NCBI RefSeq assembly: GCF_024700885.2
Contig: NZ_CP117016.1
Origin: Escherichia coli
GTDB taxonomy: Bacteria > Pseudomonadota > Gammaproteobacteria > Enterobacterales > Enterobacteriaceae
DNA length: 64,000 bases
Reading direction: 5' to 3' (one strand)
Position 1 is the first letter of the stretch; each line of letters begins with the position of its first letter. The notes beneath the pieces were generated by a model. It was not told the origin of the DNA and did not search any database. It saw only the letters and a program-made list of their open reading frames with translations. This document shows, one piece after another, positions 11,885 to 40,787 of the stretch. A program made the position numbers and the translations under genes.

Positions 11885-11901
11885 GCTCAAACTCTCTTTA
11901 A

Positions 11902-22971: not shown

Positions 22972-23021
22972 ATGAGTGCAATAGAAAATTTCGATGCCCA
23001 TACGCCCATGATGCAGCAGTA
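22972..23021 (+). pseudogene. mutS: Orphaned original 5' end of mutS (first 17 codons, [17 protein letters not shown]) displaced by the island
   Basis: Sequence encodes the native MutS N-terminus as I recall it and then diverges abruptly into AT-rich island DNA; the frame ends after 17 further island codons. Confidence 0.8.
22999..23021. repeat. Left copy of the imperfect direct repeat flanking the island (attL candidate)
   Basis: CATACGCCCATGATGCAGCAGTA; 19 of 23 positions match the right copy at 40836-40858, with an identical ATGATGCAGCA core. Confidence 0.65.
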
Positions 23022-23100: not shown

Positions 23101-23365
23101 TAACATATAGTTATGTTAGCCAAGAACTCGAACTTAATGTGCCTAACTACAGAATGAAAAGTAACGTTGCGATACCGAAAAAATTTGGTGGCGTAAGGAA
23201 GGAATTGAAGTTCATTCATCTCCGTGAATATCTAAATCAATTTAATAACCAATTAAATAATTAGCTGGCTACAAATAACATTGATCTAATTCAATAATTT
23301 AGGATTATGTATTGGAGCTATTGAAAAAGTTGTGTTATAAAGGAAAAAAATCAAGGGAGATTAAA

Positions 23366-24401: not shown

Positions 24402-24448
24402 TATCCAAGCGGATATCAGTTTAGATCTTAAAAGGAAAAAAATCCAAA

Positions 24449-25153: not shown

Positions 25154-25244
25154 CTTACCCGATAAAAAATAGTTATTAGAACACCTTAAACTGATAATTA
25201 CATTAATAAATGCGAGTGATGAAATTTTTGAGTGAGATCATAAA

Positions 25245-25568: not shown

Positions 25569-25876
25569 TGGTTGATTTTCATTGGTGTATCAGTCTGGTC
25601 TATGTTTGTTTTATATCAATTCAAAGATAACATAATCCCAGTTATTGAATTCGCCTATGAGCATATAAAGAGTTTCGTTACTTATTTATTAAGCAAGGGC
25701 TAACTCATCGAAGCTCCGCTTCTTTGAGTTCCCTTGTTTTTCGCCCTTCGGTTGAAAAAGAAAGTCAAAGTCTAACCTAACTCATTGACATGAATTGCAT
25801 TTCCACTATAAATATATAATGTGTTGCAAAGGAATTGCTTACTTTAAAGCGAATAAAAATATAAAAAGGAGTTTAT

Positions 25877-26260
25877 ATGGGTAAAATAATAACATTGTCG
25901 TATACAAATAATTTTAAGCCTATTAGCGATAATAAATCTCAATCATTGCGAATACACTGTGTAAGTGTACGATTAAATAAAGAAGAGTTAGAGCTTCTCA
26001 ATGCAAGCCGTGGTGATAAACGCAAAGGTGAATGGCTTCGCATGGCATCACTTCAAAAGCTTCCTCCGACCATTCCTACAATCAATTTAGAAGTTTGGCA
26101 ATCATTGTCTGATATATCTCAAAAGCTAAACCGTCTAATAATCCACCTTGATACTAAAAGCAGTAATAGTGAACTGACGAAAACAGAGATCTTCGCTGTT
26201 AAAAAGCAGATTAAAGAGCTTCGCTCATGTCTTACAGGTTCTGATCCGTCCGTAAGGTAG
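25877..26260 (+). CDS. MobC-like mobilisation (relaxosome accessory) protein
   Basis: 127-aa ORF with the MobC-type core HCVSVRLNKEELELLNA...GEWLRM, immediately upstream of a relaxase gene. Confidence 0.65.
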   Translation: MGKIITLSYTNNFKPISDNKSQSLRIHCVSVRLNKEELELLNASRGDKRKGEWLRMASLQKLPPTIPTINLEVWQSLSDISQKLNRLIIHLDTKSSNSELTKTEIFAVKKQIKELRSCLTGSDPSVR

Positions 26261-26268
26261 TTATTCGC

Positions 26269-27450
26269 ATGAAAGGAATGCAGAAGATCAAAAGGGGTAA
26301 GAGCTTCTCAGGTGTGGTTCTCTATGTGTTAAAGCCAGGCTCACACCATAGAACCGTTCCAGAAGTAATTGGTGGCAACATGACAGGTGATTGCTCACAA
26401 GAGTTAATCGACGAATTTAACCTTACGAAAGAGCTTCGCTCAGATGTGGCAAAACCTGTTTGGCACAATTCACTTCGATTACCCCAGGGAGAATCTCTTA
26501 CCAACGAACAATGGAAACGAATTGCTGACGATTACATGAAGCGAATGGGGTTCGGTGATACACACCTCCGTTGCTATGTTCTTCATGATGATCAGGCTGG
26601 TCAGCACATACACATTATTGCAAGTCGCATAGATCTCAATGGCGGGAAGCTCTACTTGGGTAGGAACGAAAACCTCATCAGCACCCGCATAATCAGTGAA
26701 CTCGAATTCGCTCATGGTCTGACAGTGACCAAGACAGCCTCTTCAATTGCACCAAAGCAACCGAAGCGGAAGAGAATCTCTCGCAACGAACAGATGCTAT
26801 CAGAACGAACTGGTGTTCCCTGCCCCAAGAAGTCCCTTCAACAGATCATAGATAAAAGTTTGGCAGATACACCTGACCTTTTAACTTTTATCAAGAGGCT
26901 GGAAGAAGCAGAAGTAGGCTGGACGGCGAATGTCGCAAGCACAGGTAAAATGAACGGGTTCTCTTTCGAATACACAGGAATAGCTTTCAAAGCTTCCCAG
27001 TTAGCCAAGAGCTATTCATGGGCAAATCTTCAAAAGCAGCTTAACTACAACCCGGATCACTTAGAAGCTCTGCGAAAGGATATACAGACCAAGGAAGTTC
27101 CTGCTCCTGTTCCTGTTCCTGTTCCTGTTCCTGTTCCTGTTCCTGTTCCTGTTCCTGCAGAACCGATAGCAAGAACGGCCGCCCAGATCGAAAGCATAAG
27201 TGAAAAAATTGCCGAACTGGAACTACGACTCAAAGAAGACAGAAGAAACGAAATCGTAGAAAAGATTCTTCAAAAGAATGCAGCCAAACAGCAAAAGCAT
27301 CTCAGGCTCACCGGCTGGATTCCCTTTTTACAACGGCTCATAGAGCTTCTCAGAAAATATGGAAGGAGCATCCTCCACAAGGTTCCTACAAACTTCTTAG
27401 AAGTCTATTCAACCCATCATCTGAAACCTACAAGAAAAATTCGTTTATAG
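26269..27450 (+). CDS. Mobilisation relaxase (MobA/VirD2-like nuclease domain) with internal (PV)n linker
   Basis: 393-aa ORF with N-terminal Tyr region (GVVLYVLKPG) and HDDQAGQHIHII three-histidine motif typical of relaxases. Confidence 0.75.
   Translation: MKGMQKIKRGKSFSGVVLYVLKPGSHHRTVPEVIGGNMTGDCSQELIDEFNLTKELRSDVAKPVWHNSLRLPQGESLTNEQWKRIADDYMKRMGFGDTHLRCYVLHDDQAGQHIHIIASRIDLNGGKLYLGRNENLISTRIISELEFAHGLTVTKTASSIAPKQPKRKRISRNEQMLSERTGVPCPKKSLQQIIDKSLADTPDLLTFIKRLEEAEVGWTANVASTGKMNGFSFEYTGIAFKASQLAKSYSWANLQKQLNYNPDHLEALRKDIQTKEVPAPVPVPVPVPVPVPVPVPAEPIARTAAQIESISEKIAELELRLKEDRRNEIVEKILQKNAAKQQKHLRLTGWIPFLQRLIELLRKYGRSILHKVPTNFLEVYSTHHLKPTRKIRL
27100..27153 (+). repeat. In-frame hexanucleotide tandem repeat (CCTGTT)n, nine units with seven perfect, encoding a Pro-Val/Pro-Ala linker
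   Basis: CCTGCT-(CCTGTT)x7-CCTGCA read directly inside the relaxase ORF. Confidence 0.9.
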
Positions 27451-28366: not shown

Positions 28367-28801
28367 CTATAACCTGACGGCTCTTACGCGAACTTCATGG
28401 GTTAACTCTTTCTCGATTACTTTCATTTCATATTGTGCTCTGACAGTAGCATAGATTTCTTCTGCCATTTCTTGATTGCTATCGATATAGTTAACGAGAG
28501 AGTTTAGCTCCCTGATAACAGCTTCCTTATTGTTTAATCGTTGTAGTAGATTGCTTGTTAGGCTTTTGTATACAGAGCTAAACATTGCCATGACATTGTC
28601 TATGTTACGATTTGATTTGGAATAAATTTTTTTAGGATAGAAATATTTTAAATGGTATCCCACAAAAATTAAGTAAAGCTGATATGAAAAACTTTTATCA
28701 TGTGGCTGATATCGTTTTGATATGTATTTATCTACAATGATAACAAGCTGTTCTTCCAGTGTCATCACTGAATTATAATTGGTTTTGTTCATAAGTTGCA
28801 T
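28367..28801 (-). CDS. Hypothetical protein
   Basis: 144-aa ORF in AT-rich island DNA; no recognisable motif. Confidence 0.4.
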   Translation of the reverse strand: MQLMNKTNYNSVMTLEEQLVIIVDKYISKRYQPHDKSFSYQLYLIFVGYHLKYFYPKKIYSKSNRNIDNVMAMFSSVYKSLTSNLLQRLNNKEAVIRELNSLVNYIDSNQEMAEEIYATVRAQYEMKVIEKELTHEVRVRAVRL

Positions 28802-28894
28802 CCTTGCAAAATTTGATTTTGTCTTCCTGACAATACATATATAATTACCACATATTTAAAAAACATCAATAGACAAAACCTATTGATGTCAAAA

Positions 28895-29308
28895 TTATTT
28901 TTTGTTTTTGGGAAAAATTTGATCTTCTCTAATACATTTACCATATGCAACCATTTGAAGATCTCTAACCATAAGTAGAAGCCTGTTATTTTCACTAACT
29001 AACCTCGAATTTTCTGTTTCTAATTTACTGATTTTATTCGAAGCATAGGCAAGACTTTGAGGACTTTTAATATGCTTAACAGTTTCACCTTTAGTTCTCT
29101 TTTTCTGCTGATATGCATAAGCTATTACTGTATGTCTTGAAAGAGCCTGTCTCGTTGGTTTTTTACCGAAATGATCCTCTACGGAATCACAAAGACTGAC
29201 CCAAGTTAAATCGCCTTCCCAGCCATTTATTTTATCGAGAACGAATTCAATATCTTCCTTGTTAAACTTTTTACTCATTATGTTCTCCTCTAAGATAATA
29301 ACTAACAA
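28895..29308 (-). CDS. Small coiled-coil protein co-operonic with the recombinase trio (real start possibly MSKKFNKED at 29278)
   Basis: 137-aa ORF overlapping the stop of the upstream recombinase; C-terminal heptad-like KISKLETENSRLVSENNRLLLMVRDLQ. Confidence 0.5.
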   Translation of the reverse strand: MLVIILEENIMSKKFNKEDIEFVLDKINGWEGDLTWVSLCDSVEDHFGKKPTRQALSRHTVIAYAYQQKKRTKGETVKHIKSPQSLAYASNKISKLETENSRLVSENNRLLLMVRDLQMVAYGKCIREDQIFPKNKK

Positions 29309-30917
29309 TATGATTTATAATTTTACTAACTTCTTGGATTTCCTTTTCAACATAATTCGCTTTCTGTGAATTATATTGGCTTCTGTATAAATTATTCTTT
29401 TCTTCAAGCGTTTGTAAATGGTCTTTAATTTTGCAAATAATATCATCCTTACTCCCTCCACCTAAATCAGAAATCATTTCATCAGCAAATAATACTCTTC
29501 GTTCGTTTTGTCGCAACTCCTCCCAAGTTCGGTTATCATACACATTATTTTGTTCAACATTTTTCCTCCCTGACCAAAAAGCTATTTCTATATCAGAGAG
29601 CATAGCTCTTTGAGCAAGAGTGTTTAAAAGATGTCTTGGCTGATGACTACTAAAAATCTCTTTCATACCATTGGGTTGTAATGTTTTATGTCGTTGAAAA
29701 AAATTTAAGGTAGTTTCTTTTTCTGACCTTTTTTTAAAATCAGCAATAAACATCTTTTTATTTGCGGGTAAGACACAGAATAAATCAATTCCTTTCTTTA
29801 AATGTAATTGATCTTTATTTAGGATTAACAATCTATTACTAAGGTTTATAGATTTTGAAAATTCATCCCAAGATTTTGTTTTATCGCTATAATTAAAAAC
29901 TTCATTCCAAAATTCTTTTGCACTAAGAATCCCACTCTCTACCCTCATTAATATATTTTTAGTTTTAACATTGAAGCAGTCCATACAGTTTAGATTTAAA
30001 AGCTTATACAACTTTGTATGAAAATATCGTCCATTCTCATCAGTCTCTAAACTCTTATAAAACTCCAATTCTCCTTTTTCTCGTAGGGTAGCTATGCACC
30101 TTGCCGTTTGTGATAATACCCTTAATCTTTTAATGGCTAATTTTGCTATTGAATGCATATTCCTTGGAATCCACTTTATACTTTCACCATAGCCTTTTGC
30201 ACTATGATAACGAATGCCATAGGAGCCTTTCCCCTCTATGTCGTTCCCTTCAACTTCACAATCCACCTCAAGACTCAGGACTTCTGATATTCGTGTTGGA
30301 GCACAAAGAAGCAGTGCGATGATAGATGTTGTAAATATATCTCTTTGGCTTTTATCATTAGAACTAAAAACCCTACCAACAAGATCTATGACTTCCTCTT
30401 CTGGTAACTTATTTTTAATTTCTTTTTGCCCTATAAGATCTCTTACAGCTTTATTTCTAATTATTCTAAGCCTGGAGTTAAACTTACTTAATTTTGGATT
30501 TATTATGTTATTTATAGCTAACACTTCTAAAATATTCTTTAATGCCTTTTCAATAGCCCCCGCACGACTATTAGAATATTTCTTTTCTACTTGGAATAAA
30601 ATGTTGTTGATAACCTCAGAATTAATATTAACAATATGTGGTTCTACATTCAAAGTGAAGAATGAACTTTCCATAATTTTTATGACCGCCAAATAAAGTA
30701 ATGATTTACTGAGATTAGGGAAACACTCTCTATATATAATAACCTTTGATAATTGTTGAAAATGCGCTCCCATGTCTTTATCTTTTTTTATATGATTGTT
30801 ATTTTTAAATGAAACCCCTCTACCCCATGACAAATCATCCCAATTTATAATATTTTCTTTTTTTGCCTGTATCCTTACTTCATTAGCTAAAACATCATAA
30901 TTATTATAATGACTCAT
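29271..30917 (-). CDS. Tyrosine recombinase family protein (third of three tandem paralogues)
   Basis: 548-aa ORF; candidate catalytic residues in order: R in CAPTRISEVLSL, HQPRHLL (HxxR), W in FWSGRK, Y in NNVYDNR. Confidence 0.6.
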   Translation of the reverse strand: MSHYNNYDVLANEVRIQAKKENIINWDDLSWGRGVSFKNNNHIKKDKDMGAHFQQLSKVIIYRECFPNLSKSLLYLAVIKIMESSFFTLNVEPHIVNINSEVINNILFQVEKKYSNSRAGAIEKALKNILEVLAINNIINPKLSKFNSRLRIIRNKAVRDLIGQKEIKNKLPEEEVIDLVGRVFSSNDKSQRDIFTTSIIALLLCAPTRISEVLSLEVDCEVEGNDIEGKGSYGIRYHSAKGYGESIKWIPRNMHSIAKLAIKRLRVLSQTARCIATLREKGELEFYKSLETDENGRYFHTKLYKLLNLNCMDCFNVKTKNILMRVESGILSAKEFWNEVFNYSDKTKSWDEFSKSINLSNRLLILNKDQLHLKKGIDLFCVLPANKKMFIADFKKRSEKETTLNFFQRHKTLQPNGMKEIFSSHQPRHLLNTLAQRAMLSDIEIAFWSGRKNVEQNNVYDNRTWEELRQNERRVLFADEMISDLGGGSKDDIICKIKDHLQTLEEKNNLYRSQYNSQKANYVEKEIQEVSKIINHIVSYYLRGEHNE

Positions 30918-32274
30918 TATTCATGCCCTCCTTGTTGAGCAATTCGATTATTTTATTTATTTTACATTCTAACATTGTGAATAAGTCCGTTAGGATTTCA
31001 AAGTCTGCTTGCTTCGTATAATCTGCTATTAATACTCCAGTAAGCTTTTTTATGATTATCAAATCGTCAACCAATCTAAGGGTAATGTCGTCACTGTTTT
31101 TTAAAAATGAGGAAATATAAGGGCTTACTAACTCATTTATTGCCTGATCTATTCTGAATGAAAACTCTTCATTGTTTTTTGCATACGACAATACTGATTT
31201 CAAATTGCTATGATCTAAAGCTTTTGCTATCGTACCTAATCCATAACCTTTAAGTGCAAGCCTTGTGGCTAATGTAACCCTAAGTTGCCGAGAGTTAATC
31301 TTTTTATTTTTATCTTTACTTACCCTTTGGCAAATGGCCTGAACCCTACCGGTTATCCTCTTAGAACTCATATGCAAATTGAAGAAGTTATTTTCATATA
31401 ATTTATCAAGTTTGTAAGTCGAGTTAAAAAAACAAGGATCAATAAAGAGGGGTAAATTGTTTAATTCATCTTCACTTAATATATCGCCTACCTCACCCTG
31501 CACAAAAACCTTAACTACTGATTTAAGCTCTGATAGTGAATTGAACAAATTATCCCCTATACGCAATTCGGAAAAATCAGTTCTGAAACTATCTCCTTGT
31601 TTTAATCTGGGTATGTTTAAAAAATTACCATTTTCTTTGATATAAAGATCCTTCCTTTTTAATTGAGCGATCTGCATTGGTCTTCGCCCCGAATATATCA
31701 TCAGCATGACTAAAAGGTAGTCATTCATAGTCATATTTCCATCATTGTATTCCTTTGTCATGCCCCCAATTAGGTTCTTCAGTTCGTATTCAGATAATGG
31801 TCTTAAAGACTCTTTTCGCTCAATATATGCAGTTGTCTTGTTGGGTTTAGTTACTTTCCATTTTAAAATCAAATCCAGCATTTCTTGATCTATGAATTCA
31901 TTATTTAACTCATAATGTTTTATTATAAAATACTTTAAACTTTCAACATGTGTATAGCTTATTTTATAATATGCATTGTAAAATCTATTTAGTAATCCAT
32001 AGTCAAATTTGTCCAACTTCCCTTGATTAAAAACAACGAGTTTTTTTATAGAAAAGAAAAACTTTCTCGCATAAGCTGAACTAAAATTCACAGCAGTATA
32101 GGCAAGGGTCTCTTTTATAGATGCTAATAAGATAGCATTAATGTTTCTTTCAAAATATGAGAAATTTAATTTAACATCTTTGCTGAGAAACCAAACACTA
32201 TCATGTAAACTAAAATTATTTCTGCTGTCTTTTGCCTTTAATACCAAGTAATTTTCTAACATTAATGCTTTCAT
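30904..32274 (-). CDS. Tyrosine recombinase-like protein with degenerate catalytic motifs (second of three)
   Basis: 456-aa ORF; SGRRPMQIAQL (box I Arg), SRQLRVTLATR, LDHSNLKSVLSYAKN; overlaps both neighbours. Confidence 0.5.
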   Translation of the reverse strand: MKALMLENYLVLKAKDSRNNFSLHDSVWFLSKDVKLNFSYFERNINAILLASIKETLAYTAVNFSSAYARKFFFSIKKLVVFNQGKLDKFDYGLLNRFYNAYYKISYTHVESLKYFIIKHYELNNEFIDQEMLDLILKWKVTKPNKTTAYIERKESLRPLSEYELKNLIGGMTKEYNDGNMTMNDYLLVMLMIYSGRRPMQIAQLKRKDLYIKENGNFLNIPRLKQGDSFRTDFSELRIGDNLFNSLSELKSVVKVFVQGEVGDILSEDELNNLPLFIDPCFFNSTYKLDKLYENNFFNLHMSSKRITGRVQAICQRVSKDKNKKINSRQLRVTLATRLALKGYGLGTIAKALDHSNLKSVLSYAKNNEEFSFRIDQAINELVSPYISSFLKNSDDITLRLVDDLIIIKKLTGVLIADYTKQADFEILTDLFTMLECKINKIIELLNKEGMNNESL

Positions 32275-33508
32275 CTATTTCTCCTTCAATTTTATTTATG
32301 ATTTCTTGATTCACTAAATCTGCCTCTTCAAAAGCTTTTAAAGTTTCTTCACTAATATAACGATTGTTATAAATCAAAGCCGTTTTGGAGTTCATTTTCC
32401 ACCCCATTCTTACGCATCTGATTCTATCTAATTGGGTCAATCTATATTGATCAGTGACTCCTATGTATTTTAAACTGTAAATATAGTTCCATGTGTGCCG
32501 TAGACAATGCCCTGTGAAATTTTGAAAAGATACTCCATTGAATTCAATTCTACTTATTTGCTTAATTACTTTATGATATGCACTTATTGACAGAGGAAAT
32601 CCTTCCGTAGGACCAGATTTTTGAGTAATAAATAAGTAATTATGATTTAAGCTTTTCGAATAGAAAGACCTATCATTGTCTATATATGAAGAGATTTGCA
32701 TAGACAATTTTTTGCTAATATTTAATTCTCGTTCAAATGTTTTAACAAGTGGTTGAAAAACTCTTGGGTCTGCTGGATCATTTATTCTTTTACAAACTTT
32801 CAGATATCTTTTTTCCTTGTTAAAATCAGTAATTTTCAAGTTCAATAGCTCACCCCCTCGCATTCCAGTTTCCTGAAGAATGAGGATTATGAGTTGATTT
32901 CTTTTACGGCAACTGATATCAACAAATGGATTGTATTGGCTTTCAGGTTCTATACATTGCAATAGAATGTCTAAGCTTTCTTTTTCTAATGATTTAAAAT
33001 CATTATTCAAATAGAATTGAGAGTTTAATTTTGGTTTATGTTTACGAAAAAGCAAACTAACACTTTTTGATATAATGTTTGTCTCATATATTGTAGTGCT
33101 AAAATATGATTCATAAATCCAAGAAATGTAGGAACTAATTACTGTCAATCTATAATGAAGATTTTCTTGATTGATCTTTTTATACTCTTTTATATCTATA
33201 ACTTTTTGTTTTTTATTTTTAACTCTAAGTTGTTCTGACAATGAATAGATTTCAGTAAAGCTAAGGAAGGTCTTAGATCTAATTCTTTCGATAAGATTTA
33301 TATTTGATTCTATTAGATAATTTTCAAAAGCAATCAAAGTGTAAGCATTTCTCAATACTGTATTAAATGACTTATTCTTTTGCTTATATAGCAAACTAAG
33401 ATATATATTTTGATAATACAATGGCAAACCGTTTTTTGAATCCAAAATCATACAAAATCTGCTTCCATCACTCGCCATTAACTTCTTTACTGAATATCTC
33501 CTATTCAT
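32216..33508 (-). CDS. Tyrosine recombinase family protein (first of three; start set at MNRRYSVKKL after a GGGGTGA RBS, ORF extends to 33547)
   Basis: GMRGGELLNL (box I Arg), HCLRHTW (HxxR), GWKMNS, ALIYNNRY (Tyr) in canonical order. Confidence 0.65.
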   Translation of the reverse strand: MNRRYSVKKLMASDGSRFCMILDSKNGLPLYYQNIYLSLLYKQKNKSFNTVLRNAYTLIAFENYLIESNINLIERIRSKTFLSFTEIYSLSEQLRVKNKKQKVIDIKEYKKINQENLHYRLTVISSYISWIYESYFSTTIYETNIISKSVSLLFRKHKPKLNSQFYLNNDFKSLEKESLDILLQCIEPESQYNPFVDISCRKRNQLIILILQETGMRGGELLNLKITDFNKEKRYLKVCKRINDPADPRVFQPLVKTFERELNISKKLSMQISSYIDNDRSFYSKSLNHNYLFITQKSGPTEGFPLSISAYHKVIKQISRIEFNGVSFQNFTGHCLRHTWNYIYSLKYIGVTDQYRLTQLDRIRCVRMGWKMNSKTALIYNNRYISEETLKAFEEADLVNQEIINKIEGEIDESINVRKLLGIKGKRQQK

Positions 33509-33626
33509 TATCACCCCATAATTTATTTTTTTATTTATAGGTAACATAATTTTTTAGCAAGTTACAAATTTATTTGCTATTATTTTCAATGACCTTATTA
33601 CTCGCGACTCTAATAAAGAATCGGCC

Positions 33627-33652
33627 ATATATTCACCTTAAGGTGAATATAT
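33627..33652. promoter_or_regulatory. Perfect palindrome ATATATTCACC-TTAA-GGTGAATATAT between the recombinase operon and the tRNA genes
   Basis: 11-bp arms with a 4-bp spacer read directly; function (operator or recombination site) not determined. Confidence 0.5.
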
Positions 33653-33680
33653 ATTCCCTCTTGACGCTCCAAAAAACAAT

Positions 33681-33757
33681 GCGGTAGTAGTTCAGTTGGT
33701 CAGAATATTCCCCTGTCACGGGAATGGTCGTGGGTTCGAGTCCCATCTATCGCGCCA
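33681..33757 (+). tRNA. tRNA-Asp (anticodon GUC), foreign island-borne copy
   Basis: Manual cloverleaf: acceptor GCGGTAG/CTATCGC, D stem GTTC/GAAT, anticodon stem TTCCC/GGGAA with loop CUGUCAC, T loop TTCGAGT, 3' GCCA; differs from my recollection of the host tRNA-Asp. Confidence 0.8.
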
Positions 33758-33761
33758 GAAA

Positions 33762-33836
33762 GGGCAATTAACTCATTGGTAGAGTGTATCTCTTACAAAG
33801 ATATGGCGGTTGGTTCGATTCCAACATTGCCCACCA
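33762..33836 (+). tRNA. tRNA-Val (anticodon UAC), foreign island-borne copy
   Basis: Manual cloverleaf: acceptor GGGCAAT/ATTGCCC, D stem ACTC/GAGT, anticodon stem TATCT/AGATA with loop CUUACAA, T stem GTTGG/CCAAC, 3' ACCA. Confidence 0.8.
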
Positions 33837-33847
33837 AAACATAAAAT

Positions 33848-33917
33848 GCGTCAGTATTTCAATGGTAGAATAAAACATTGCCAATGTTTAGGTGAGGGTT
33901 CGATCCCCCTATATTTA
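33848..33917 (+). pseudogene. Degenerate tRNA-like sequence with a Gly (GCC) anticodon arm
   Basis: Intact anticodon arm AAACA-TTGCCAA-TGTTT and a T-loop-like GGGTTCGATCCCC, but the acceptor strands GCGTCAG and ATATTTA cannot pair. Confidence 0.4.
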
Positions 33918-34104
33918 CTTTAGTTAGTAACTCATTGATATAAAATAAATAATAGAAAAGTGTAATTTGTTTTGTAAAGCACAAATAAGAAATTAGAAAA
34001 TATTTAAATGTACAGTGTACGAAAAATTAACCAACTATGTTAATGGCAACTATATGATGATAAAATTACTCATCTAACGATCTATATTATATGAGTAATG
34101 TTTC

Positions 34105-34680
34105 ATGGTACGAAAAATCTCTACATTTTTAAAGATAATAGGAGTTATAGGTTCTTTATGCGGGATTATTGCGACAGTATTCACAATCTATGCGTACTAC
34201 AACCCGACCTCCCCTTCTACTCAGAGATATGACAGTATTGTAGGAAGCTGGCTATCTGATTACTCTTACACCGTAAAAGGGAATACCGTTAGGGTTAATG
34301 GAAAAACGACCTTCTTCTCTAATGGAAAATACAACTTTCATGGCAGTATCTCTATTGACTCTAATGCTCCAGGTGACCATATATTAATAGATTATCTTTC
34401 TGATGGTGCTGGTGATTGGGAACTATATGATAATGAGTTAATTACATCATTAAATAGCCTAAAAACAAAACCTATGAAGCTGGCTTTAAATAACGAAGAT
34501 CTTGATCCACTGAAAATAGAGGTGATAAACAATAAAAAGTTACCAACTATTGAGGAGAATATGGCTGATGGGAAAAACCAATCCTATAAAATAATAAAAT
34601 CTTCAAAAAGCCAGTTAACATTGGAGGTTATTAACGAAATCGGAAGCAATTTCAACTTTACTATGCAAAAAACAAAATAG
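34105..34680 (+). CDS. Hypothetical membrane-anchored or secreted protein
   Basis: 191-aa ORF with an N-terminal hydrophobic segment followed by a Ser/Thr/Asn-rich domain. Confidence 0.45.
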   Translation: MVRKISTFLKIIGVIGSLCGIIATVFTIYAYYNPTSPSTQRYDSIVGSWLSDYSYTVKGNTVRVNGKTTFFSNGKYNFHGSISIDSNAPGDHILIDYLSDGAGDWELYDNELITSLNSLKTKPMKLALNNEDLDPLKIEVINNKKLPTIEENMADGKNQSYKIIKSSKSQLTLEVINEIGSNFNFTMQKTK

Positions 34681-34712: not shown

Positions 34713-36560
34713 TCAACCTTGATAATCTTCAGCCTCGATACCACAATAAGTTATCATGTTTGTTATTAACGGTATATCATTACAATTCTGCTTGAAAGAC
34801 CTGCCATAACTATTGTTTCTTATTTTACAACGAGTCATTAATACTTCTTCAATGGCTCTTGAAAATGCCACAAAGACTGTTTTTTGATTTTCTATTTGCT
34901 CTTCTTCTTTACCAAAATAGGCACCAGGTTCAAGCCCCACAACGATGACCTTCCTGAACTCTAACCCTTTACTTTTATGGATGGTCATAAGAGGTATTGT
35001 TTTATTGCCAAGTAATAAATCAATGGCTTCTGATGTGTTTTCTTTTACATCTAACTTATCGAGGTGGCGAGAAAGTAATTCTATGCTATATTCTAAAACA
35101 TTCCCACTCATATACTGCGGAAAGTAAGACTTTATTTTATCGACACCAAATATACTTAATAATGAATATAAATAATCGACAATTTCTCCTTTAATTACCC
35201 GATGAGATTTAATAAACTGGCTAAGTTCTTTTTCTAACCGTGTAACATCACCTCTTTTACTTACTCCTCTTATATTACATAGAAGCTCCATTGTAGTGGC
35301 CCAGCTTTCTATGGATTTTCTATTACAGACAAACATTAGCATTTGTAAAAGTAACTGTACTACAGCTTCATTTAAAAGATCCTGATACTCGTTCTCAAGG
35401 CGACATTGTATTTTCAAATATTGCAATGCTGAAATGATATCGTCTGTATATTGTTTAGCCGGGTTTCTTAGCAGTATACATATATCTCTTTCATTTACTC
35501 CTTCAGCAATCCATTGCTGGATACATAATGCTATATATGCCCCTTCAATACTACTTTCGTCAAATTGTAGTAACTTAGCTGAACCTTCATTTTCAATCAA
35601 CATCATATCAGGCTTTATATCAGCATGATTCATGAAAGCTTCCATCATGCGTTGATAATTTATGAGGTTTTTTAATGACCTTCTATTGCTAACTAATTCA
35701 TTAGATTGTTCGATTCCAAAATCTTTTTTAAACACATCAAAAGCATTGTGCATTGCACCTGCCCAACCCATTATTCTTTGTTTTGTATCACCGACTGCTG
35801 TTATTTTTATTTTTTTACCCAAGAAAATGCTCTTAAAAATCTCATATTGCCTATATGTTGTGTCCTGAAACTCATCGATAAAAGCATAGTCATATGTTGA
35901 ATTTATAGCATTAGATAAATATTGATTCCTACTAATAATATAATTAGCAAGAAAATTAATCATCTTGAATGAAATCCTTGATTTTGGTTTTAATAAGTGT
36001 AACCACACAAACCGTCTTATCCTGCCATCAACAGAATGTTCTAATGCTTTATTATAAGGAGTTACTATATAATTCTCTTCAAAATTATAAGGTTGTAATT
36101 TATTTAATTCTTCAGATGTTAAACCTTCAAAGCCTACGGCCTCTCTTTTAATTTCTTCAACTAAATCATTATTATTTGGAAAGATTATTTCATAGTCATT
36201 TGATGGACGATAAGATTCCGGAATAGTGCTTTTAAAGCGATCAACAATACTTTTACAGAATGCATCAAATGTTGTTGATTCAAATTTGTGTCTATATTTT
36301 GTATCAAGCCGTGAGTTTACTCTATCTTGAAGATTTTTGGCCGCATCTTTTTTAAAGGATAATGCAATTATTTTTTTATTGCTGCATTTTCCTGTCTCAA
36401 TCAAGAAACAAGCTTTCTGAGCCAATAATTCTGTTTTACCTGCACCGGGACCAGCAAGAACGAGATTATGCCCTGTACTATTTCGAATTACCCTCATAGC
36501 CTCGTCTTCTACTTCTTGGATATCCTTTAAAACCCAATCGGCATCTTTAATAGTCGGCAT
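34713..36560 (-). CDS. gajB: UvrD/PcrA-like superfamily 1 helicase, Gabija GajB-like
   Basis: 615-aa ORF with Walker A (LAGPGAGKTELL), DEFQDTT motif and C-terminal HKSKGLEF motif; start codon shares one nucleotide with the upstream ATPase stop. Confidence 0.65.
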   Translation of the reverse strand: MPTIKDADWVLKDIQEVEDEAMRVIRNSTGHNLVLAGPGAGKTELLAQKACFLIETGKCSNKKIIALSFKKDAAKNLQDRVNSRLDTKYRHKFESTTFDAFCKSIVDRFKSTIPESYRPSNDYEIIFPNNNDLVEEIKREAVGFEGLTSEELNKLQPYNFEENYIVTPYNKALEHSVDGRIRRFVWLHLLKPKSRISFKMINFLANYIISRNQYLSNAINSTYDYAFIDEFQDTTYRQYEIFKSIFLGKKIKITAVGDTKQRIMGWAGAMHNAFDVFKKDFGIEQSNELVSNRRSLKNLINYQRMMEAFMNHADIKPDMMLIENEGSAKLLQFDESSIEGAYIALCIQQWIAEGVNERDICILLRNPAKQYTDDIISALQYLKIQCRLENEYQDLLNEAVVQLLLQMLMFVCNRKSIESWATTMELLCNIRGVSKRGDVTRLEKELSQFIKSHRVIKGEIVDYLYSLLSIFGVDKIKSYFPQYMSGNVLEYSIELLSRHLDKLDVKENTSEAIDLLLGNKTIPLMTIHKSKGLEFRKVIVVGLEPGAYFGKEEEQIENQKTVFVAFSRAIEEVLMTRCKIRNNSYGRSFKQNCNDIPLITNMITYCGIEAEDYQG

Positions 36561-38548
36561 TAAAGTAATCCTCTTACTGTTTCGATAATTTCATTAAGAA
36601 CTTCAGGACTATCATCTCTTAACTTATCGTCTTCCATTTTTGATAGAACATAATTGTGCGATAATGGTTTACCTCTTCCTAAAAATAGGTAACGATACCA
36701 AAAATATTTTTCATAATCATCGAACTCACTAATATCAATATCTTTCTCTTCTTTTTTCAAAACTGCAGCAATTGCCGATTTAACTTTATTATCATATTCA
36801 TGATCGTCATCTTTTGGCAATCTTGGCCCACCATTTTTGGGAACAAATGTCTTATAATCCTCAAAGAATTTATTAAGCATTAGCCAATCTAAATCGTAGG
36901 GGTAAGAAAAATAAACATTATAATCTTTTAGACAATTAATCCATGCCGATTCATTATCTTGATCCTCATCCCATGTATGCATTTTTTCAAGCTCTTCATC
37001 ACTTAAAGTTCCTGAAGTAATACTTAACAATTCATTTTTATCTGCACCTATAGATATTAATTGTTTGACTGCATATTTAATTCTTCCCCAACCACCACCT
37101 CCTCCTCTCTTGAAATCATAGTCGAGAAGAGTCACATGTGGAATTGAAAGCTCATTGAGTAACTTCCAAAAATGATTAACATATCGCCCTCCTAATGGAG
37201 CAAATGTTATCAATGAAGTGTCAAGCTCTATACCATTTACTTGAGCTATTTTAGGTATTACTATTTCTTCGCTATCACCTTCACCAAGTATTACAACTTT
37301 TGCAAAATAAATTTCTGGATATGCCTTCACTGCTTCTTTTACATAAGTGAAAGTATCAACATTGTCTCCATCGTCTTCATCTTCGCTTGGTAATAATATT
37401 GGTTTGACAACAGTATTTTTATTATCATGTAGACGAAAATACCTTATATTTTCTGGTTCTACTCTATTGAGTAATGAAGGTGCGTGTGTTGTTAAAACAA
37501 CCTGTGCTCGATCATTCTCAGATATATCTTCACATAGTTTAACTATTCTTCCTAAATATTGGGGTGAAAGATGATTTTCTGGTTCTTCGATTAATATTAT
37601 CGTTAAATTTGGAGGATCTAATGCTTCTACTGATATTGATAATTCATTTTCTCCTGAATTAATGATCTCATCTTCAATATCAAATGCAGATTTGACTAAC
37701 GAAAGATAAAACAATGACTTCATACCATCACTCAATCTTTCAGTTGGTAATGGCTGAGTCACCGGAGTAGGCATAAATACAGTATCTATATGCTTTAATA
37801 CATCTTCTATTCCATTCATTACTGGCTGAATTTTAAGCTGTTCAAAATACCCTCCGCTAAAAAGAGTTTTCCAATTTCTGCCCAATGAAGATGTTATTGT
37901 CTGAACCCCAATTTCTTCTTGGAACTGGTTTCCGATTGATTCTGCAACCTCATCAACCGTTGAACTCATCTGTTCAGACCATTCAACTGCATTTATCAAA
38001 CGGTGCATGATGGTTCCGGCTGTTTGCTTCAGTTGTTGAGCAGGATCGCGATAAGCAGGGACATAATGAACATGGATTTTTGATCTTTCATATGCTGTAA
38101 TATTTTTTTCATATTCTCCTATTTCCCATACTAAATCACTATCTATATCCCCTTCTGCAAGATTAGTTTTTGTCCATTTAGCTTTTAATTTTGCTATACA
38201 GTATGGGATCTGGTCTGCTTCATTTGAGACCAAATGCTTAAAGAAATCAGCGACTGAATCGTCCTCACCATCTTGCAGATCTGCAAATTCAAATTTTACA
38301 CGAACTGATAATTCTCTTTCATCTTGAGTATCGATTTCATCTCCAGGAGGAACATAAAAATCATCAACTTGAACAATTCTATCGGAGCTTTTGACACCAA
38401 ACATCCTTGTCAATGCGAGGAGAACAGCCGTCTTACCTGTTCCATTCCCTCCAATTAAGCTGGTGAATGAATTTATATTTATAGTTTGCCCTACATTATC
38501 AAAGCTCTTAAAACCTTTGATCTCCATTTGTGTAATTTTCATTATCAC
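36560..38548 (-). CDS. gajA: OLD-family ATPase-TOPRIM nuclease, Gabija GajA-like
   Basis: 662-aa ORF with ABC-type Walker A (LIGGNGTGKTAVLL), Walker B and H-loop region (IILIEEPENHLSP) and a C-terminal TOPRIM-like VVILGEGDSEE. Confidence 0.65.
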   Translation of the reverse strand: MIMKITQMEIKGFKSFDNVGQTININSFTSLIGGNGTGKTAVLLALTRMFGVKSSDRIVQVDDFYVPPGDEIDTQDERELSVRVKFEFADLQDGEDDSVADFFKHLVSNEADQIPYCIAKLKAKWTKTNLAEGDIDSDLVWEIGEYEKNITAYERSKIHVHYVPAYRDPAQQLKQTAGTIMHRLINAVEWSEQMSSTVDEVAESIGNQFQEEIGVQTITSSLGRNWKTLFSGGYFEQLKIQPVMNGIEDVLKHIDTVFMPTPVTQPLPTERLSDGMKSLFYLSLVKSAFDIEDEIINSGENELSISVEALDPPNLTIILIEEPENHLSPQYLGRIVKLCEDISENDRAQVVLTTHAPSLLNRVEPENIRYFRLHDNKNTVVKPILLPSEDEDDGDNVDTFTYVKEAVKAYPEIYFAKVVILGEGDSEEIVIPKIAQVNGIELDTSLITFAPLGGRYVNHFWKLLNELSIPHVTLLDYDFKRGGGGGWGRIKYAVKQLISIGADKNELLSITSGTLSDEELEKMHTWDEDQDNESAWINCLKDYNVYFSYPYDLDWLMLNKFFEDYKTFVPKNGGPRLPKDDDHEYDNKVKSAIAAVLKKEEKDIDISEFDDYEKYFWYRYLFLGRGKPLSHNYVLSKMEDDKLRDDSPEVLNEIIETVRGLL

Positions 38549-39195
38549 CTCAATTGCTGTTTTAAAAAATTATAATCACTAATTATTTCTGCGTTTGTAA
38601 TGATTTCTTGTGAGCACAGCTTAAAACATTCTAAAAATATATTTTTATTATCGTTATGTTCCCAATGTTTTTTCAAAGCTTCTTCAATTGAAATCCAAAT
38701 AACTTGAAAATCGTTATTAGATATTTGGCTTGTTAAAACTGTTTCTTCCACACAAAGTATATGCCCTAAGATGACATCATCGTATATGTCAGTATCTGAA
38801 TCTCTAACTCCTAACCTTTTTATTTTCCTTTTTTGGATGATTTTATTTTTAACAATAAAAGGATGTTCTTCTATAAAATCGGTCAATGATGTAAAAGCCA
38901 AGCCACGAACCTGAGCACCATGCATTGAACTATTTACTTTATGGATATCTCTCCAAACTCGCAGATCACCTAATACATAGAGAACCCGCTGATTTCTCGC
39001 TTTCGTATCTTCTGCTTGGTATTGGATATAAGGTGGCCCTCCCCCATTTTGTCTATATCGGGCAAGGGTTTTGATGCTTATGCCAAGAAAGACAGAAGCA
39101 AGCTCACTATTTACAGTGGCAGAATCAGGCATTTGACCAAATAGTTTCCATACCTCTGAATACTCCCGCAAAACTTCCACCACACTCATCTTCAC
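38545..39195 (-). CDS. Uncharacterised protein with an N-terminal HTH-like motif, translationally coupled between the integrase and the ATPase (possible true start at ATG 39189)
   Basis: 216-aa ORF; ELASVFLGISIKTLARYRQNGGGPP resembles excisionase/AlpA-type HTH; its start overlaps the integrase stop and its stop overlaps the ATPase start (ATGA). Confidence 0.5.
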   Translation of the reverse strand: MKMSVVEVLREYSEVWKLFGQMPDSATVNSELASVFLGISIKTLARYRQNGGGPPYIQYQAEDTKARNQRVLYVLGDLRVWRDIHKVNSSMHGAQVRGLAFTSLTDFIEEHPFIVKNKIIQKRKIKRLGVRDSDTDIYDDVILGHILCVEETVLTSQISNNDFQVIWISIEEALKKHWEHNDNKNIFLECFKLCSQEIITNAEIISDYNFLKQQLR

Positions 39196-40655
39196 TCCCT
39201 CGTTTCAGGTAATGGAGGATACTTAGCCGAAGCAAGTAACACATTGTATAATTTAGGAGCAGTCATAAGCATATGCAACTCAATCCTTTGTAATGCTTCA
39301 AAAATCCGTTCTTGATCAGGTTCTGCATACCTTTCTGTTGGATCTGTTGTATTTCTGTGATTGAGCAGTCTCTTAACGACGGCATATGAAACAAGTTCTT
39401 CAGCAACCCTACCAAATGTCCTTCGTAGATCATGCATACCAAGCTTCAGGATTCCCGCCTCTTGGCAGATATATTCCCTTAGACTTTTACTATCGGAATA
39501 GTGACCAACTTTACTTCGAGAAGAACGGGCCGGGAAAACCCACTTCTGTTTGTCCTTCTGGGTTACCGTATCGTTTACTATGTCTCTTCTATCTTCCAAA
39601 ATTCTTTTGACAGCATCACAAATCGGAAGCTCGTGATCGTTTCGATTCTTAGTGTCGTAAAAACGGATAGTTCTGTTACTCAGGTCAACATAGCTTGTCG
39701 TTTTAGCTTCTTCCTTTGTAAGAGACTCTCGCCAACACAGAGAAGCTGTTTCTTCCTTACGAGCACCTAAGAGAACGGTAAGTAGCAGATAATCGCACCC
39801 AAGCCGGTTGAAGCTTCTCTTGTTGAACAATGCAGTCAAGAACCGACCAAGTGTATCCTTTGGTGATAAGGGGTTTCTGACACCTTTTGCCCGATAACTA
39901 TCCTCAAGCTCAGAACGTGTCCTAAACTTTTTCTGTACCTTTAAGATACTGAAAGGGTTGTAAGATAGAGAAGGTTGTCGTTGCTGGGTCTGAGCATTCC
40001 CAGCTTCAATCTCTATTGCGTGTTTTACAGCAACATTCGCCCACCTAAAGGTCTGTTCCGCTGCTGTTCTGGCTCTTGAAGCAATCTCATCAAACTTCCT
40101 AAGAATTTCATTACCAGTAAGATCTTTAACTCGCAAACCAGCCCACTCAGAAAGCCTGTTTTCTGCTTTATCTAATACAGCCAAGGTGTTGGGTTTAGCT
40201 GGTTTCGCTCTACCCAGCAGATGCTGGCGGTATTGTGCAAACACTTCACTGATAGTGAGTTCAGAAGCATCGGACTCCCGTTTTATTTTGTTAGGGTTCC
40301 TTTTGGTCAACTTCATGGTTTGAACTAAATTGCGAGCAACCTCGCGGGCTTGATCGATGTTAGCGAAATCAGAGACATTGCCAATTGTAGACCTGATAAC
40401 CTCAGATGGGGATTTTCCCCCTGTCTTAGGGCGATTGCCAGGAGAAGAGACTCGTCGCTGAACGATATAGGTCTTTTTCGTTGCACTGATTTTGACACCA
40501 AAACCAACGGGTGAATCCCGGTGATTATCAGTGATAAGATACGGTTTTCGCTCTGGATTGGGTAAGTAGACTACTCTGCCTTGCGGATCAAGGCTCGGTT
40601 TCACGTCGATAGATAACTTATTGATTATAATCGACTGATTGAGTGTCATTTTCAT
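39192..40655 (-). CDS. Tyrosine integrase, P4-like family with N-terminal arm-binding domain (ORF extends to 40763; start set at MKMTLNQ)
   Basis: Box I LLGARKEETASL, HDLRRTFG (HxLR) and C-terminal NHRNTTDPTERY; lies at the island border next to the target gene. Confidence 0.8.
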   Translation of the reverse strand: MKMTLNQSIIINKLSIDVKPSLDPQGRVVYLPNPERKPYLITDNHRDSPVGFGVKISATKKTYIVQRRVSSPGNRPKTGGKSPSEVIRSTIGNVSDFANIDQAREVARNLVQTMKLTKRNPNKIKRESDASELTISEVFAQYRQHLLGRAKPAKPNTLAVLDKAENRLSEWAGLRVKDLTGNEILRKFDEIASRARTAAEQTFRWANVAVKHAIEIEAGNAQTQQRQPSLSYNPFSILKVQKKFRTRSELEDSYRAKGVRNPLSPKDTLGRFLTALFNKRSFNRLGCDYLLLTVLLGARKEETASLCWRESLTKEEAKTTSYVDLSNRTIRFYDTKNRNDHELPICDAVKRILEDRRDIVNDTVTQKDKQKWVFPARSSRSKVGHYSDSKSLREYICQEAGILKLGMHDLRRTFGRVAEELVSYAVVKRLLNHRNTTDPTERYAEPDQERIFEALQRIELHMLMTAPKLYNVLLASAKYPPLPETRE

Positions 40656-40660
40656 CGATG

Positions 40661-40716
40661 TATACCAGTGGTTCAAGTGTGTATACCAGATAGTAGCTAG
40701 AATACTTCTGGTATAC
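40661..40716. promoter_or_regulatory. Three copies of TATACCAG, including a 10-bp inverted repeat GTATACCAGA...TCTGGTATAC, between the integrase start and mutS
   Basis: Read directly; candidate integrase operator or arm sites, overlapping a possible -10 (TAGAAT) for the rewired mutS. Confidence 0.5.
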
Positions 40717-40787
40717 AAATTTATGGGTTTATGTGAGTTTAAAGGGGTATCACTTGGGGCCACATAAGTACTCAGAAGACTTTAAAA

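What the first reader, a model, noticed from the sequence alone, without database searches (positions are those of the whole stretch)
28895..33547. Three tandem tyrosine recombinase paralogues plus a small coiled-coil protein
Three consecutive, overlapping minus-strand ORFs (443, 456 and 548 aa) each carry tyrosine-recombinase-like catalytic residues (box I Arg, HxxR, terminal Tyr), with the middle one degenerate. They are followed by an overlapping 137-aa coiled-coil ORF. The arrangement resembles recombinase-in-trio elements or Tn554-type tnpA-tnpB-tnpC modules, but the sizes and the third recombinase do not fit either cleanly. Since a separate P4-type integrase already sits at the island border, this is a second, independent recombination module, possibly a nested element or a DNA-rearrangement switch.
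Basis: partly seen in the sequence, partly recalled or inferred. Interest (0 to 1): 0.7.

Follow-up and report, generated by a model that had tools for sequence, protein, structure and literature searches.

The report
GInt recombinase operon inside defence island
The four genes are the known "GInt" mobility operon (three tyrosine recombinases plus a small helper protein), here sitting unusually in the middle of an E. coli anti-phage island that also has its own integrase and a relaxase gene, next to a conserved DNA site that looks like its recombination site.

Summary

The family is known. [quoted passage not shown] Relatives 97% identical in DNA are already listed as ginC-ginD blocks in Idola et al. 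2023. Hochhauser et al. 2023 list mutS-ygbA as defence hotspot #8.

The layout is not canonical. The operon lies mid-island in a 17.8-kb Gabija-carrying island with a relaxase gene. That island is inserted in the 5' end of mutS and has its own non-P4 border integrase.

About 130 bp upstream of ginA is a conserved site: a palindrome, a hypervariable 6-nt spacer and a third arm. In this window a foreign 251-bp tRNA fragment sits exactly in the spacer. I infer that this is the Gin attachment site in its joined form. No split form was found in about 20 loci.

RIT, Tn554, SE, GMT and inversion-switch readings are rejected. Interest is modest.

The parts
32216..33547 (-). ginA (P1): tyrosine recombinase, 443 aa ORF (RefSeq start 33508, 430 aa)
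   Evidence: PF00589 7.8e-13; box I aligns with XerH; invariant R230 K269 H347 R350 W383 Y393.
30904..32274 (-). ginB (P2): tyrosine recombinase, 456 aa; His of HxxR not conserved
   Evidence: PF00589 1.5e-12; NF041502 integrase_1, 2.2e-65, below cut-off; invariant R198 R332 H355 Y364.
29271..30917 (-). ginC (P3): large divergent tyrosine recombinase, 548 aa, no Pfam hit, full catalytic set
   Evidence: Relatives WP_078207318 and WP_001547657 are listed as GinC in Idola 2023 Additional file 10.
28895..29308 (-). ginD (P4): small accessory protein (127 aa from ATG 29278), helical head plus long C-terminal helix
   Evidence: Relatives WP_078207319 and WP_001547656 appear in the ginC-ginD list.
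28862..28890 (-). Terminator-like hairpin (13-pair stem plus T-run) directly after the ginD stop; conserved in all Enterobacterales gin islands
   Evidence: (sequences printed).
33627..33652 (.). R1|R2: perfect 26-bp palindrome ATATATTCACCTT|AAGGTGAATATAT, centre 132 bp upstream of the RefSeq ginA start
   Evidence: unique in the window, 0 expected; invariant, arm changes mirrored; always 104-148 bp from ginA.
33654..33903 (+). Foreign insert in the spacer (the 251-bp indel 33654-33904): promoter-like TTGACG, tRNA-Asp (33681-33757), tRNA-Val (33762-33836), and a truncated tRNA with GCC anticodon (33855-33910) lacking its acceptor stem. Flanked by spacer-like hexamers TTCCCT (33654-33659) and TCCCCC (33904-33909).
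   Evidence: 251-bp indel; L031 precursor with spacer TCCCCC; foreign; present in 4 of 5426 E. coli.
33904..33921 (.). Spacer TCCCCC plus R3 arm TATATTTACTTT (reverse complement resembles R2)
   Evidence: the first spacer position shows all four bases between invariant arms.
33922..33990 (.). Conserved AT-rich non-coding stretch beyond R3; cargo 2 diverges after about 33990. Candidate GInt '3' end'.
28367..28801 (-). P5, 144 aa, unknown function. Always follows ginD in Enterobacterales, but also present in gin-less islands, so it belongs to the island backbone.
25688..27450 (+). Mobilisation block: oriT-like nested hairpin (25694-25736), MobC-like gene 25877-26260, relaxase 26269-27450
   Evidence: TraI/MobA(P) 1.8e-18; z -4.2.
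34713..38548 (-). Cargo 2: Gabija (GajB 34713-36560, GajA 36560-38548)
   Evidence: GajA 1.9e-240, GajB 2.6e-198.
38545..40763 (-). 216-aa gene plus border tyrosine integrase (RefSeq 39195-40655), specific for mutS; not P4-type
23005..23021 (+). Island-distal att core CCCATGATGCAGCAGTA within the displaced native mutS 5' end (22973-23021)
40842..40858 (+). Integrase-proximal att core CCTATGATGCAGCAATA inside the rebuilt mutS (40788-43370)
   Evidence: the Yersinia island has the same pair.

Best explanation
Identity (shown). [quoted passage not shown] All three large proteins are tyrosine recombinases that keep their nucleophile Tyr and both catalytic Arg. GinD is a small helical, probably DNA-binding, protein with a coiled-coil stalk. 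The operon is intact, under purifying selection, and ends in its own terminator.

From published experiments on Pseudomonas GInts: all four products are needed to excise the element as a circle and to integrate it site-specifically by about 6-nt staggered exchange.

Context (shown). The operon is not at an island end. It lies in the middle of a 17.8-kb low-GC island with a relaxase gene and an oriT-like hairpin, which is inserted in the 5' end of mutS. The island is bounded by CCYATGATGCAGCARTA repeats and has its own border integrase. Gin-less islands with that integrase sit at the same site, so the integrase, not Gin, accounts for the mutS insertion.

Inferred. The tripartite site about 130 bp upstream of ginA (R1|R2 palindrome, 6-nt spacer, inverted arm R3) is the Gin system's attachment site in its joined (attI) form. 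Read from that site, the island has the canonical GInt order: gin operon, cargo, short AT-rich end. The island would then be a circle-capable element with two independent attachment sites. The 251-bp tRNA fragment in the spacer would be a scar of an earlier Gin-mediated integration into a tRNA T-arm, followed by imprecise excision. That would also be how such elements pick up cargo.
For: Identity: architecture and domains; P3 fold and motifs; P1 and P2 motifs. Relatives 97% identical in DNA, and L003-type relatives, are listed among the ginC-ginD synteny blocks found by PSI-BLAST from P. stutzeri GinC/GinD (definitions). Distant homologues from the same alignment sit in canonical GInt positions: after nrdA in Pseudomonas, beside an RNR gene in Sphingobium, and after ssb on pETN48 with Avs4 cargo. 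These are the targets reported. Function maintained: dN/dS 0.09-0.26; terminator.

Context: att cores and the mutS rebuild; gin-less islands at the same site; mosaic reassortment of the gin block; Hochhauser hotspot #8 and the 'IME__GInt' label.

Site: unique palindrome. It is conserved, with mirrored arm changes, in E. coli, Yersinia, Pantoea, Dickeya, Photorhabdus, a Citrobacter MAG and metagenomes. It is absent from gin-less islands. It is always 104-148 bp from ginA, a similar distance to the host gene to ginA gap in canonical GInts. The first spacer position has four states between more than 50 invariant columns; Bardaji et al. report that excision creates variants in the 6-nt overlap. 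The tRNA insert lies exactly in the spacer, flanked by TTCCCT and TCCCCC, and the precursor L031 has spacer TCCCCC.
Against: No locus among about 20 shows the site split by integration. Use of this site by Gin is therefore inferred, not observed, and the site could be an operator or a resolution site. Its sequence is unrelated to the published Pseudomonas GInt att cores. Searches for matching end motifs in canonical GInts did not beat shuffles. The defining GInt layout, with gin at the island's 5' border, is not met here. Published descriptions say GinC lacks the first Arg or the catalytic Tyr, whereas this family keeps them. Either those alignments were off or this clade differs. Related leuX-type copies are often frameshifted or hit by IS elements, which shows the operon can be dispensable once an island is fixed. 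No experiment was possible.
Confidence: 0.55

Rival explanations
1. Autonomous minimal GInt nested in the island. The 5.1-kb block from the ginD stop to about 33990 is a self-contained, cargo-less GInt that inserted into a specific site of the mobilizable-island backbone between P5 and the integrase-proximal region. It moves independently of the island.
For: The gin block behaves as a cassette. GinA-D diverge together but out of step with P5, the relaxase and the border integrase. Homology with leuX-type islands (85% DNA identity over P5) stops right at the ginD stop. Gin-less islands of the same family exist. A Pseudomonas copy between nrdA and nrdB may be nearly cargo-less.
Against: No direct or inverted repeats above chance flank the block in any of 11 islands. 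The R1/R2/R3 site is intact on one side only. In this clade the operon is always accompanied by the mutS-type border integrase. No copy of this block was found elsewhere in 5,426 E. coli genomes or on plasmids.
Confidence: 0.15
2. Domesticated maintenance module. The Gin proteins act on R2-spacer-R3 as a resolution or regulatory site of the excised circular island (multimer resolution, or control of excision with the border integrase), not as an integration system. R1|R2 is an operator bound by GinD.
For: The site is always found in the joined form. The palindrome with mirrored arm changes suits a dimeric DNA-binding protein, and GinD has a helical head plus a coiled coil. There is obligate linkage with the border integrase and relaxase.
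Against: Three recombinases plus a helper is excessive for resolution. A res site or operator should not have a hypervariable centre, nor capture foreign DNA precisely within it. In tested GInts the four genes drive integration and excision.
Confidence: 0.15
3. Decaying relic. The operon is a remnant of a GInt that fused with the island. It is no longer active and is carried passively.
For: leuX-type copies are frequently frameshifted or interrupted by IS elements. The island's position is explained by the border integrase alone.
Against: In the window all four ORFs are intact with conserved catalytic residues. dN/dS is 0.09-0.26 even at saturated dS. The non-coding site is conserved across genera.
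Confidence: 0.08
4. Invertible-DNA switch, or a RIT/Tn554-type element.
For: Multiple adjacent tyrosine recombinases superficially resemble RIT trios. The small fourth protein resembles TnpC in size and coiled coil, a similarity also noted in the literature.
Against: Orientation and spacing are constant in more than 20 loci. There are no long inverted repeats bounding the module. RIT has three genes and no small fourth gene. Tn554 has two recombinases. The proteins are catalogued with GinC/GinD, which cluster apart from SE Tfp/Srap.
Confidence: 0.03

Closest known systems
[quoted passage not shown] 2017
   Same: Four co-oriented, overlapping genes: two Pfam-recognisable tyrosine recombinases, a large divergent third one usually annotated hypothetical, and a ~130-aa helper with a C-terminal coiled coil. 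Close relatives are catalogued as GinC/GinD. Defence cargo is carried, and target choice falls at the ends of housekeeping genes in relatives (nrdA, ssb).
   Different: The operon is internal, 5.9 kb and 7.3 kb from the island ends, not at the 5' border. The island has its own border integrase, which explains the insertion site, plus a relaxase gene and an oriT-like hairpin, whereas GInts are described as putatively non-mobilizable. The candidate attachment site is present in joined form. GinC here keeps the full catalytic set, whereas it is reported as lacking the first Arg or the Tyr.
Strand-biased circularizing integrative elements (SE: intA-tfp-intB-srap), Idola et al. 2023
   Same: A four-gene module of tyrosine-recombinase-fold proteins plus a small coiled-coil helper; imperfect inverted terminal motifs around a 6-bp spacer; 6-bp 'footprints' that vary with the target.
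   Different: The gene order differs (in SE the non-catalytic Tfp is second and the large catalytic IntB is third). SE proteins form separate similarity clusters from GinC/GinD. The proteins here are listed with GInt.
Gamma-Mobile-Trio (GMT: GmtY-GmtZ-GmtX) islands, Mahata et al.
   Same: A multi-recombinase module that mobilises defence-rich islands in Gammaproteobacteria; insertion sites contain inverted repeats around a spacer; a circular intermediate.
   Different: GMT has three genes, not four. P1 hits the GmtY model only weakly (27 bits against a cut-off of 340). P3 has no Phage_Integr_2 or GmtZ hit. The GMT module lies at the island border.
Tn554 (tnpA-tnpB-tnpC)
   Same: [quoted passage not shown]
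   Different: Tn554 has two recombinases rather than three and is a Firmicutes element.
RIT (recombinase-in-trio) elements
   Same: Three adjacent, overlapping tyrosine recombinase genes.
   Different: RIT has no small fourth gene, its proteins are smaller and similar in size, and it is bounded by long inverted repeats (my recollection of Ricker et al. 2013; not tested against reference sequences). No such repeats occur here.

Membership tests
GInt (ginABCD operon) | Operon of three tyrosine-recombinase-like genes followed by a small helper gene, co-oriented | tested here: met
GInt (ginABCD operon) | Sequence homology of the third and fourth products to reference GinC/GinD | tested here: met
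   Indirect but specific. WP_078207318/WP_078207319 (NZ_CP018970, 97.3% DNA identity to the window) and WP_001547657/WP_001547656 are in the published ginC-ginD list. Homologues in the same alignment occupy canonical GInt sites. Not compared directly with the P. stutzeri proteins, which the tools could not fetch.
GInt (island architecture) | gin operon delimits the 5' end of the island, with attL just upstream of ginA | tested here: not met
   The island ends are at 23021 and 40842. ginA starts at 33547, with Gabija and the border integrase between it and mutS.
GInt (island architecture) | Cargo starts at the ginD stop; short AT-rich, poorly conserved 3' end; 10-17 nt imperfect direct repeats at the borders | tested here: inconclusive
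   Non-gin genes follow ginD, but the first (P5) is conserved backbone. A conserved AT-rich stretch lies beyond R3. The 17-nt imperfect repeats bound the whole island but are attributable to the border integrase.
GInt (function) | All four genes required for excision as a circle and for site-specific integration | not testable with these tools
   Requires genetics and PCR. Only purifying selection and a candidate site could be shown.
SE (intA-tfp-intB-srap) | Second gene encodes a non-catalytic Tfp of at least 550 aa; third encodes a large catalytic IntB; Tfp/Srap sequence cluster | tested here: not met
   The second protein is 456 aa and keeps R, R, H and Y. The proteins are catalogued in the GinC/GinD cluster, which is separate from Tfp/Srap.
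GMT | GmtY, GmtZ (Phage_Integr_2) and GmtX trio at the island border | tested here: not met
   The GmtY model scores 27 bits against a cut-off of 340. P3 and P4 have no NCBIfam or Pfam hit. There are four genes, placed internally.
RIT | Exactly three recombinases bounded by long inverted repeats | tested here: not met
   A fourth conserved gene is present. No long bounding inverted repeats. RitA/B/C profiles were not available.
Tn554 | tnpA, tnpB and tnpC: two recombinases plus TnpC | tested here: not met
   Three recombinases are present. Direct comparison with TnpA/B/C sequences was not possible.
Integrative mobilizable element (the surrounding island) | Integrase and att repeats plus relaxase/oriT, without a conjugation apparatus | tested here: met
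   Border integrase and 17-nt repeats; relaxase hit 1.8e-18 and an oriT-like hairpin; no mating-pair genes among the ORFs.

The most novel reading that the evidence does not exclude
The island carries two independent attachment systems. One is a mutS-specific integrase with its att site. The other is a complete GInt system whose attachment site (R2, a 6-nt spacer, R3) is caught in the joined state. The foreign tRNA-Asp/tRNA-Val/truncated tRNA fragment lodged exactly in the spacer would be a natural record of Gin-mediated integration into a tRNA T-arm followed by imprecise excision. That would be the first sequence-level evidence for how GInts acquire cargo next to their attachment site, a step that Bardaji et al. 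state is without empirical evidence. It would also show that a GInt can be mobilised through a relaxase and oriT carried on the same island.
Probability: 0.3. Interest if true: 0.6.

Novelty: new variant of a known kind. Interest (0 to 1): 0.36.

Why it matters
GInts and their relatives (SE, GMT, Tn554) are poorly understood movers of resistance, virulence and anti-phage genes. Their attachment sites, their cargo-capture mechanism and their route between cells are open questions.

This locus does not reveal a new kind of system. It does offer a tractable E. coli example in which three things hold:

- The gin operon is intact, and all three recombinases look catalytically competent, contrary to published statements about GinC.
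- A sharply defined candidate recombination site is conserved across at least six genera, with a hypervariable crossover region and one captured foreign fragment.
- The operon is permanently associated with a second integrase and a relaxase, which suggests how 'non-mobilizable' GInts can travel.

If the site assignment is right, it makes GInt site recognition and cargo capture directly testable.

Tried and rejected
1. Tandem of two elements using the same mutS att site. No third copy of the core occurs in any of eight islands, at 13 or more of 17 matches.
2. Direct repeats flanking a cargo-less gin cassette. The best matches are at shuffle level in 11 islands. The apparent AACCTATTGAT repeat was a chance match.
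3. The 11-mer TAACTCATYGA (3 copies against 0.06 expected) as a module-boundary site. The copy near R3 is not conserved in other islands. The other two belong to the oriT-like segment, which is also present in the gin-less L006.
4. Split forms of the R1/R2/R3 site. Scans of species-representative genomes and of metagenomes found only joined forms.
5. Matching end motifs in canonical GInts (pETN48, Pseudomonas, Sphingobium). Not above shuffles.
6. Sequence-only searches for P3 against Pfam, NCBIfam, PHROGs, PADLOC and the PDB found nothing. Only structure and alignment revealed the fold.
7. Promoter scan. Counts equal chance.
8. GinD fold search. Only weak matches, Z no higher than 5.3.
9. Phage origin of the tRNA fragment. 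Only weak tRNA-Asp similarity to jumbo phages.
10. Presence of the module's DNA on plasmids. None; only ~30%-identical GinC relatives are found there.
Full report
OBSERVATION. The window contains a low-GC island (about 31% against about 55% in the flanks). Within it, one search lists four overlapping minus-strand ORFs at the stated coordinates: P1 32216-33547 (443 aa), P2 30904-32274 (456 aa), P3 29271-30917 (548 aa) and P4 28895-29308 (137 aa; 127 aa from the ATG that RefSeq uses). Pfam finds Phage_integrase in P1 (7.8e-13) and P2 (1.5e-12), but nothing in P3, even when 30 homologues are scanned one by one. A profile search of the PDB also found nothing.

P1, P2 AND P4. P1 keeps R230, K269, H347xxR350, W383 and Y393. 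P2 keeps R198, R332, H355 and Y364 but has lost the His of HxxR. P4 is modelled (pLDDT 82) as a small helical head plus a ~40-residue helix. It gives only weak matches to small DNA-binding domains. dN/dS is 0.09-0.26 for all four genes.

WHAT IT IS. NCBIfam gave a weak GmtY hit for P1. That led to the literature on multi-recombinase elements. The architecture is that of GInts. [quoted passage not shown] All four genes are required for excision as a circle and for integration (Bardaji et al. 2017).

Membership is supported by a published catalogue. Additional file 10 of Idola et al. 2023 lists ginC-ginD synteny blocks found by PSI-BLAST from P. stutzeri GinC/GinD. It contains WP_078207318.1 and WP_078207319.1 from NZ_CP018970.1, which is 97.3% identical in DNA to this module. 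It also contains WP_001547657.1 and WP_001547656.1, the P3 and P4 orthologues of locus L003.

Distant members of my P3 alignment occupy classical GInt positions. One lies after nrdA in Pseudomonas, one beside an RNR gene in Sphingobium, and one after ssb on the IncF plasmid pETN48 with Avs4 cargo. These are the targets reported by Bardaji et al.. Hochhauser et al. 2023 already list GInts ('Tn6571-family') as defence carriers in E. coli, define mutS-ygbA as hotspot #8 (27 of 1,322 genomes occupied), and use the label 'IME__GInt' in their tables. So the kind is known.

THE SURROUNDINGS. The window is an E. coli chromosome, 100% identical to strain MLI114. Homology with island-free genomes ends at 23021, inside a displaced native mutS 5' end ([17 protein letters not shown]). 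At the other end the island supplies a new mutS N-terminus. The two ends carry the imperfect repeat CCYATGATGCAGCARTA.

Starting from the distal (ygbA-side) att core, the island contains, in order:
- unknown cargo (23.3-25.6 kb);
- an oriT-like hairpin (z -4.2), a MobC-like gene and a relaxase;
- small ORFs;
- P5, then ginD, ginC, ginB and ginA;
- the site described below;
- Gabija;
- a 216-aa gene and a border tyrosine integrase next to mutS.

The same layout, with different cargo (DRT3, Qat, retron Ec48, DUF4297-HerA, Hachiman, Pycsar), occurs in other E. coli, Yersinia and Pantoea. Two E. coli islands at the same mutS site have the border integrase, the relaxase and a P5 homologue (41-42% identity) but no gin operon. 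The border integrase therefore accounts for the mutS insertion, and P5 belongs to the backbone.

About 85 further E. coli genomes carry a second island type at tRNA-Leu. It has a genuine P4-type integrase, AlpA, a 30-37% identical gin operon (often frameshifted or hit by IS elements), and an 84% identical P5. GinA-D diverge together but out of step with P5, the relaxase and the integrase. The operon therefore reassorts as a cassette, whose ginD-side edge is at the ginD stop.

A CANDIDATE RECOMBINATION SITE. A perfect 26-bp palindrome, ATATATTCACCTT|AAGGTGAATATAT (33627-33652), lies upstream of ginA. It is unique in the window, with 0 expected by chance. In tRNA-less islands it is followed by A, a 6-nt C-rich spacer, and TATATTTACCTT. 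The reverse complement of that last arm resembles the second arm of the palindrome.

I found the same arrangement in Yersinia, Pantoea, Dickeya, Photorhabdus, a Citrobacter MAG and 12 metagenome contigs. Substitutions in one arm are mirrored in the other. The palindrome centre is always 104-148 bp from ginA, and a mutS-type integrase lies on the far side wherever the contig extends. The site is absent from gin-less islands.

Across 17 distinct sequences the arms are nearly invariant, while the first spacer position shows all four bases. Within the seven E. coli-type sites it is the only four-state column among more than 50 invariant ones. In tested GInts, strand exchange uses about 6-nt staggered cuts and creates variants in that overlap.

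In the window and three other E. coli genomes, a foreign 251-bp segment lies exactly in the spacer. It holds tRNA-Asp, tRNA-Val and a tRNA with a GCC anticodon that is truncated after its T-arm. The segment is flanked by TTCCCT and TCCCCC. The metagenome contig L031 is the tRNA-less form of the same lineage and has spacer TCCCCC. The fragment is not E. coli-like.

I read this site as the Gin attachment site with its two ends joined. Starting from it, the island has the canonical GInt order: gin operon, cargo, short AT-rich end (33910 to about 33990). The tRNA piece would be a scar of integration into a tRNA T-arm followed by imprecise excision.

LIMITS. No locus shows the site split. End-motif searches in canonical GInts were not significant. 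The site is unrelated in sequence to the Pseudomonas att cores. An operator or resolution-site role therefore remains possible. My confidence is about 0.9 that this is a gin operon. It is about 0.45 that R2-spacer-R3 is its recombination site, and about 0.35-0.4 for the tRNA-scar reading.

REJECTED. A tandem of two mutS-att elements. A repeat-flanked cassette. RIT, Tn554, SE and GMT membership. An inversion switch (constant orientation; no bounding inverted repeats).

DISCREPANCY WITH THE LITERATURE. GinC is described as lacking the first Arg, or the RHRY motif and catalytic Tyr. In my alignment, which includes a canonical Pseudomonas GInt, all of these residues are invariant.

VERDICT. This is a known mobility operon in a non-canonical, composite setting. 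It is of modest interest, and it provides a concrete, testable candidate for the GInt attachment site and for cargo capture.

Noticed in passing
window 22973-23021 and 40788-40860: The island is inserted inside the 5' end of mutS. The native first 16 codons are left behind at the far end, and the island supplies a new, longer N-terminus ([24 protein letters not shown]...; ORF of 860 aa) and presumably a new promoter for this mismatch-repair gene. Whether MutS expression or activity changes, with possible mutator effects, is unknown.
   Followed up: partly
window 23312-25568: Cargo bay 1 holds four ORFs (107, 262, 164 and 107 aa) with no NCBIfam hit. I did not scan them against PADLOC. Sister islands carry retron Ec48, DUF4297-HerA, DUF4209 or Pycsar in this position, so these ORFs are candidates for an undescribed anti-phage system.
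   Followed up: no
window 25688-25790: Nested-hairpin segment (CAAGGGCTAACTCA..GAAGC-TCC-GCTTC..TGAGTTCCCTTG) upstream of the MobC-like and relaxase genes. DNA fold z = -4.2. The first 25 nt are 92-96% conserved in Pantoea and Citrobacter islands and in the gin-less L006. Probably the oriT. L002 has two copies flanking a cargo gene.
   Followed up: partly
window 25701, 25778, 33928: The 11-mer TAACTCATYGA occurs three times on the same strand (0.06 expected): twice in the oriT-like segment and once just beyond R3. The third copy is not conserved in other islands, so its meaning is unclear.
   Followed up: partly
window 33681-33910: tRNA-Asp(GTC), tRNA-Val(TAC) and a truncated tRNA(GCC) lie in a 31% GC island. 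They are unlike E. coli tRNA genes and only weakly like jumbo-phage tRNA-Asp. They are present in 4 of 5,426 E. coli genomes, and the two intact ones score 67-68 bits in Rfam. Whether they are expressed is unknown.
   Followed up: partly
window 38545-39195: A 216-aa gene always follows the border integrase. Its N-terminal part is conserved across islands (homology resumes about 38870) and its C-terminal part varies. It has no family hit and may be a recombination directionality factor or a cargo-boundary gene.
   Followed up: no
window 34105-34680: A 191-aa ORF with a hydrophobic N-terminus lies between the gin site and Gabija. It is also present in Dickeya (L016 5533-6108) next to the same site, and has no family hit.
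   Followed up: no
L015 (Kangiella metagenome contig) 1639-12466: Two complete gin operons (397/513/735/141 aa and 367/515/684/132 aa) lie head-to-head, about 300 bp apart. This arrangement is not described in the papers I read.
   Followed up: no
L010 15860-17162; L011 13983-19196: In the tRNA-Leu (leuX) island family the gin operon is often damaged: ginB is frameshifted in L010, and IS1 and IS3 insertions disrupt ginC and ginB in L011. P5 and the relaxase stay intact.
   Followed up: partly
alignment A1 (GinC family), distant ~700-aa members: Distant ~700-aa GinC homologues carry an extra C-terminal Cys/His-rich motif (GxCxH..PCxK..CxxCxE) that is absent from the 548-aa E. coli protein. It may be a zinc ribbon.
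   Followed up: no
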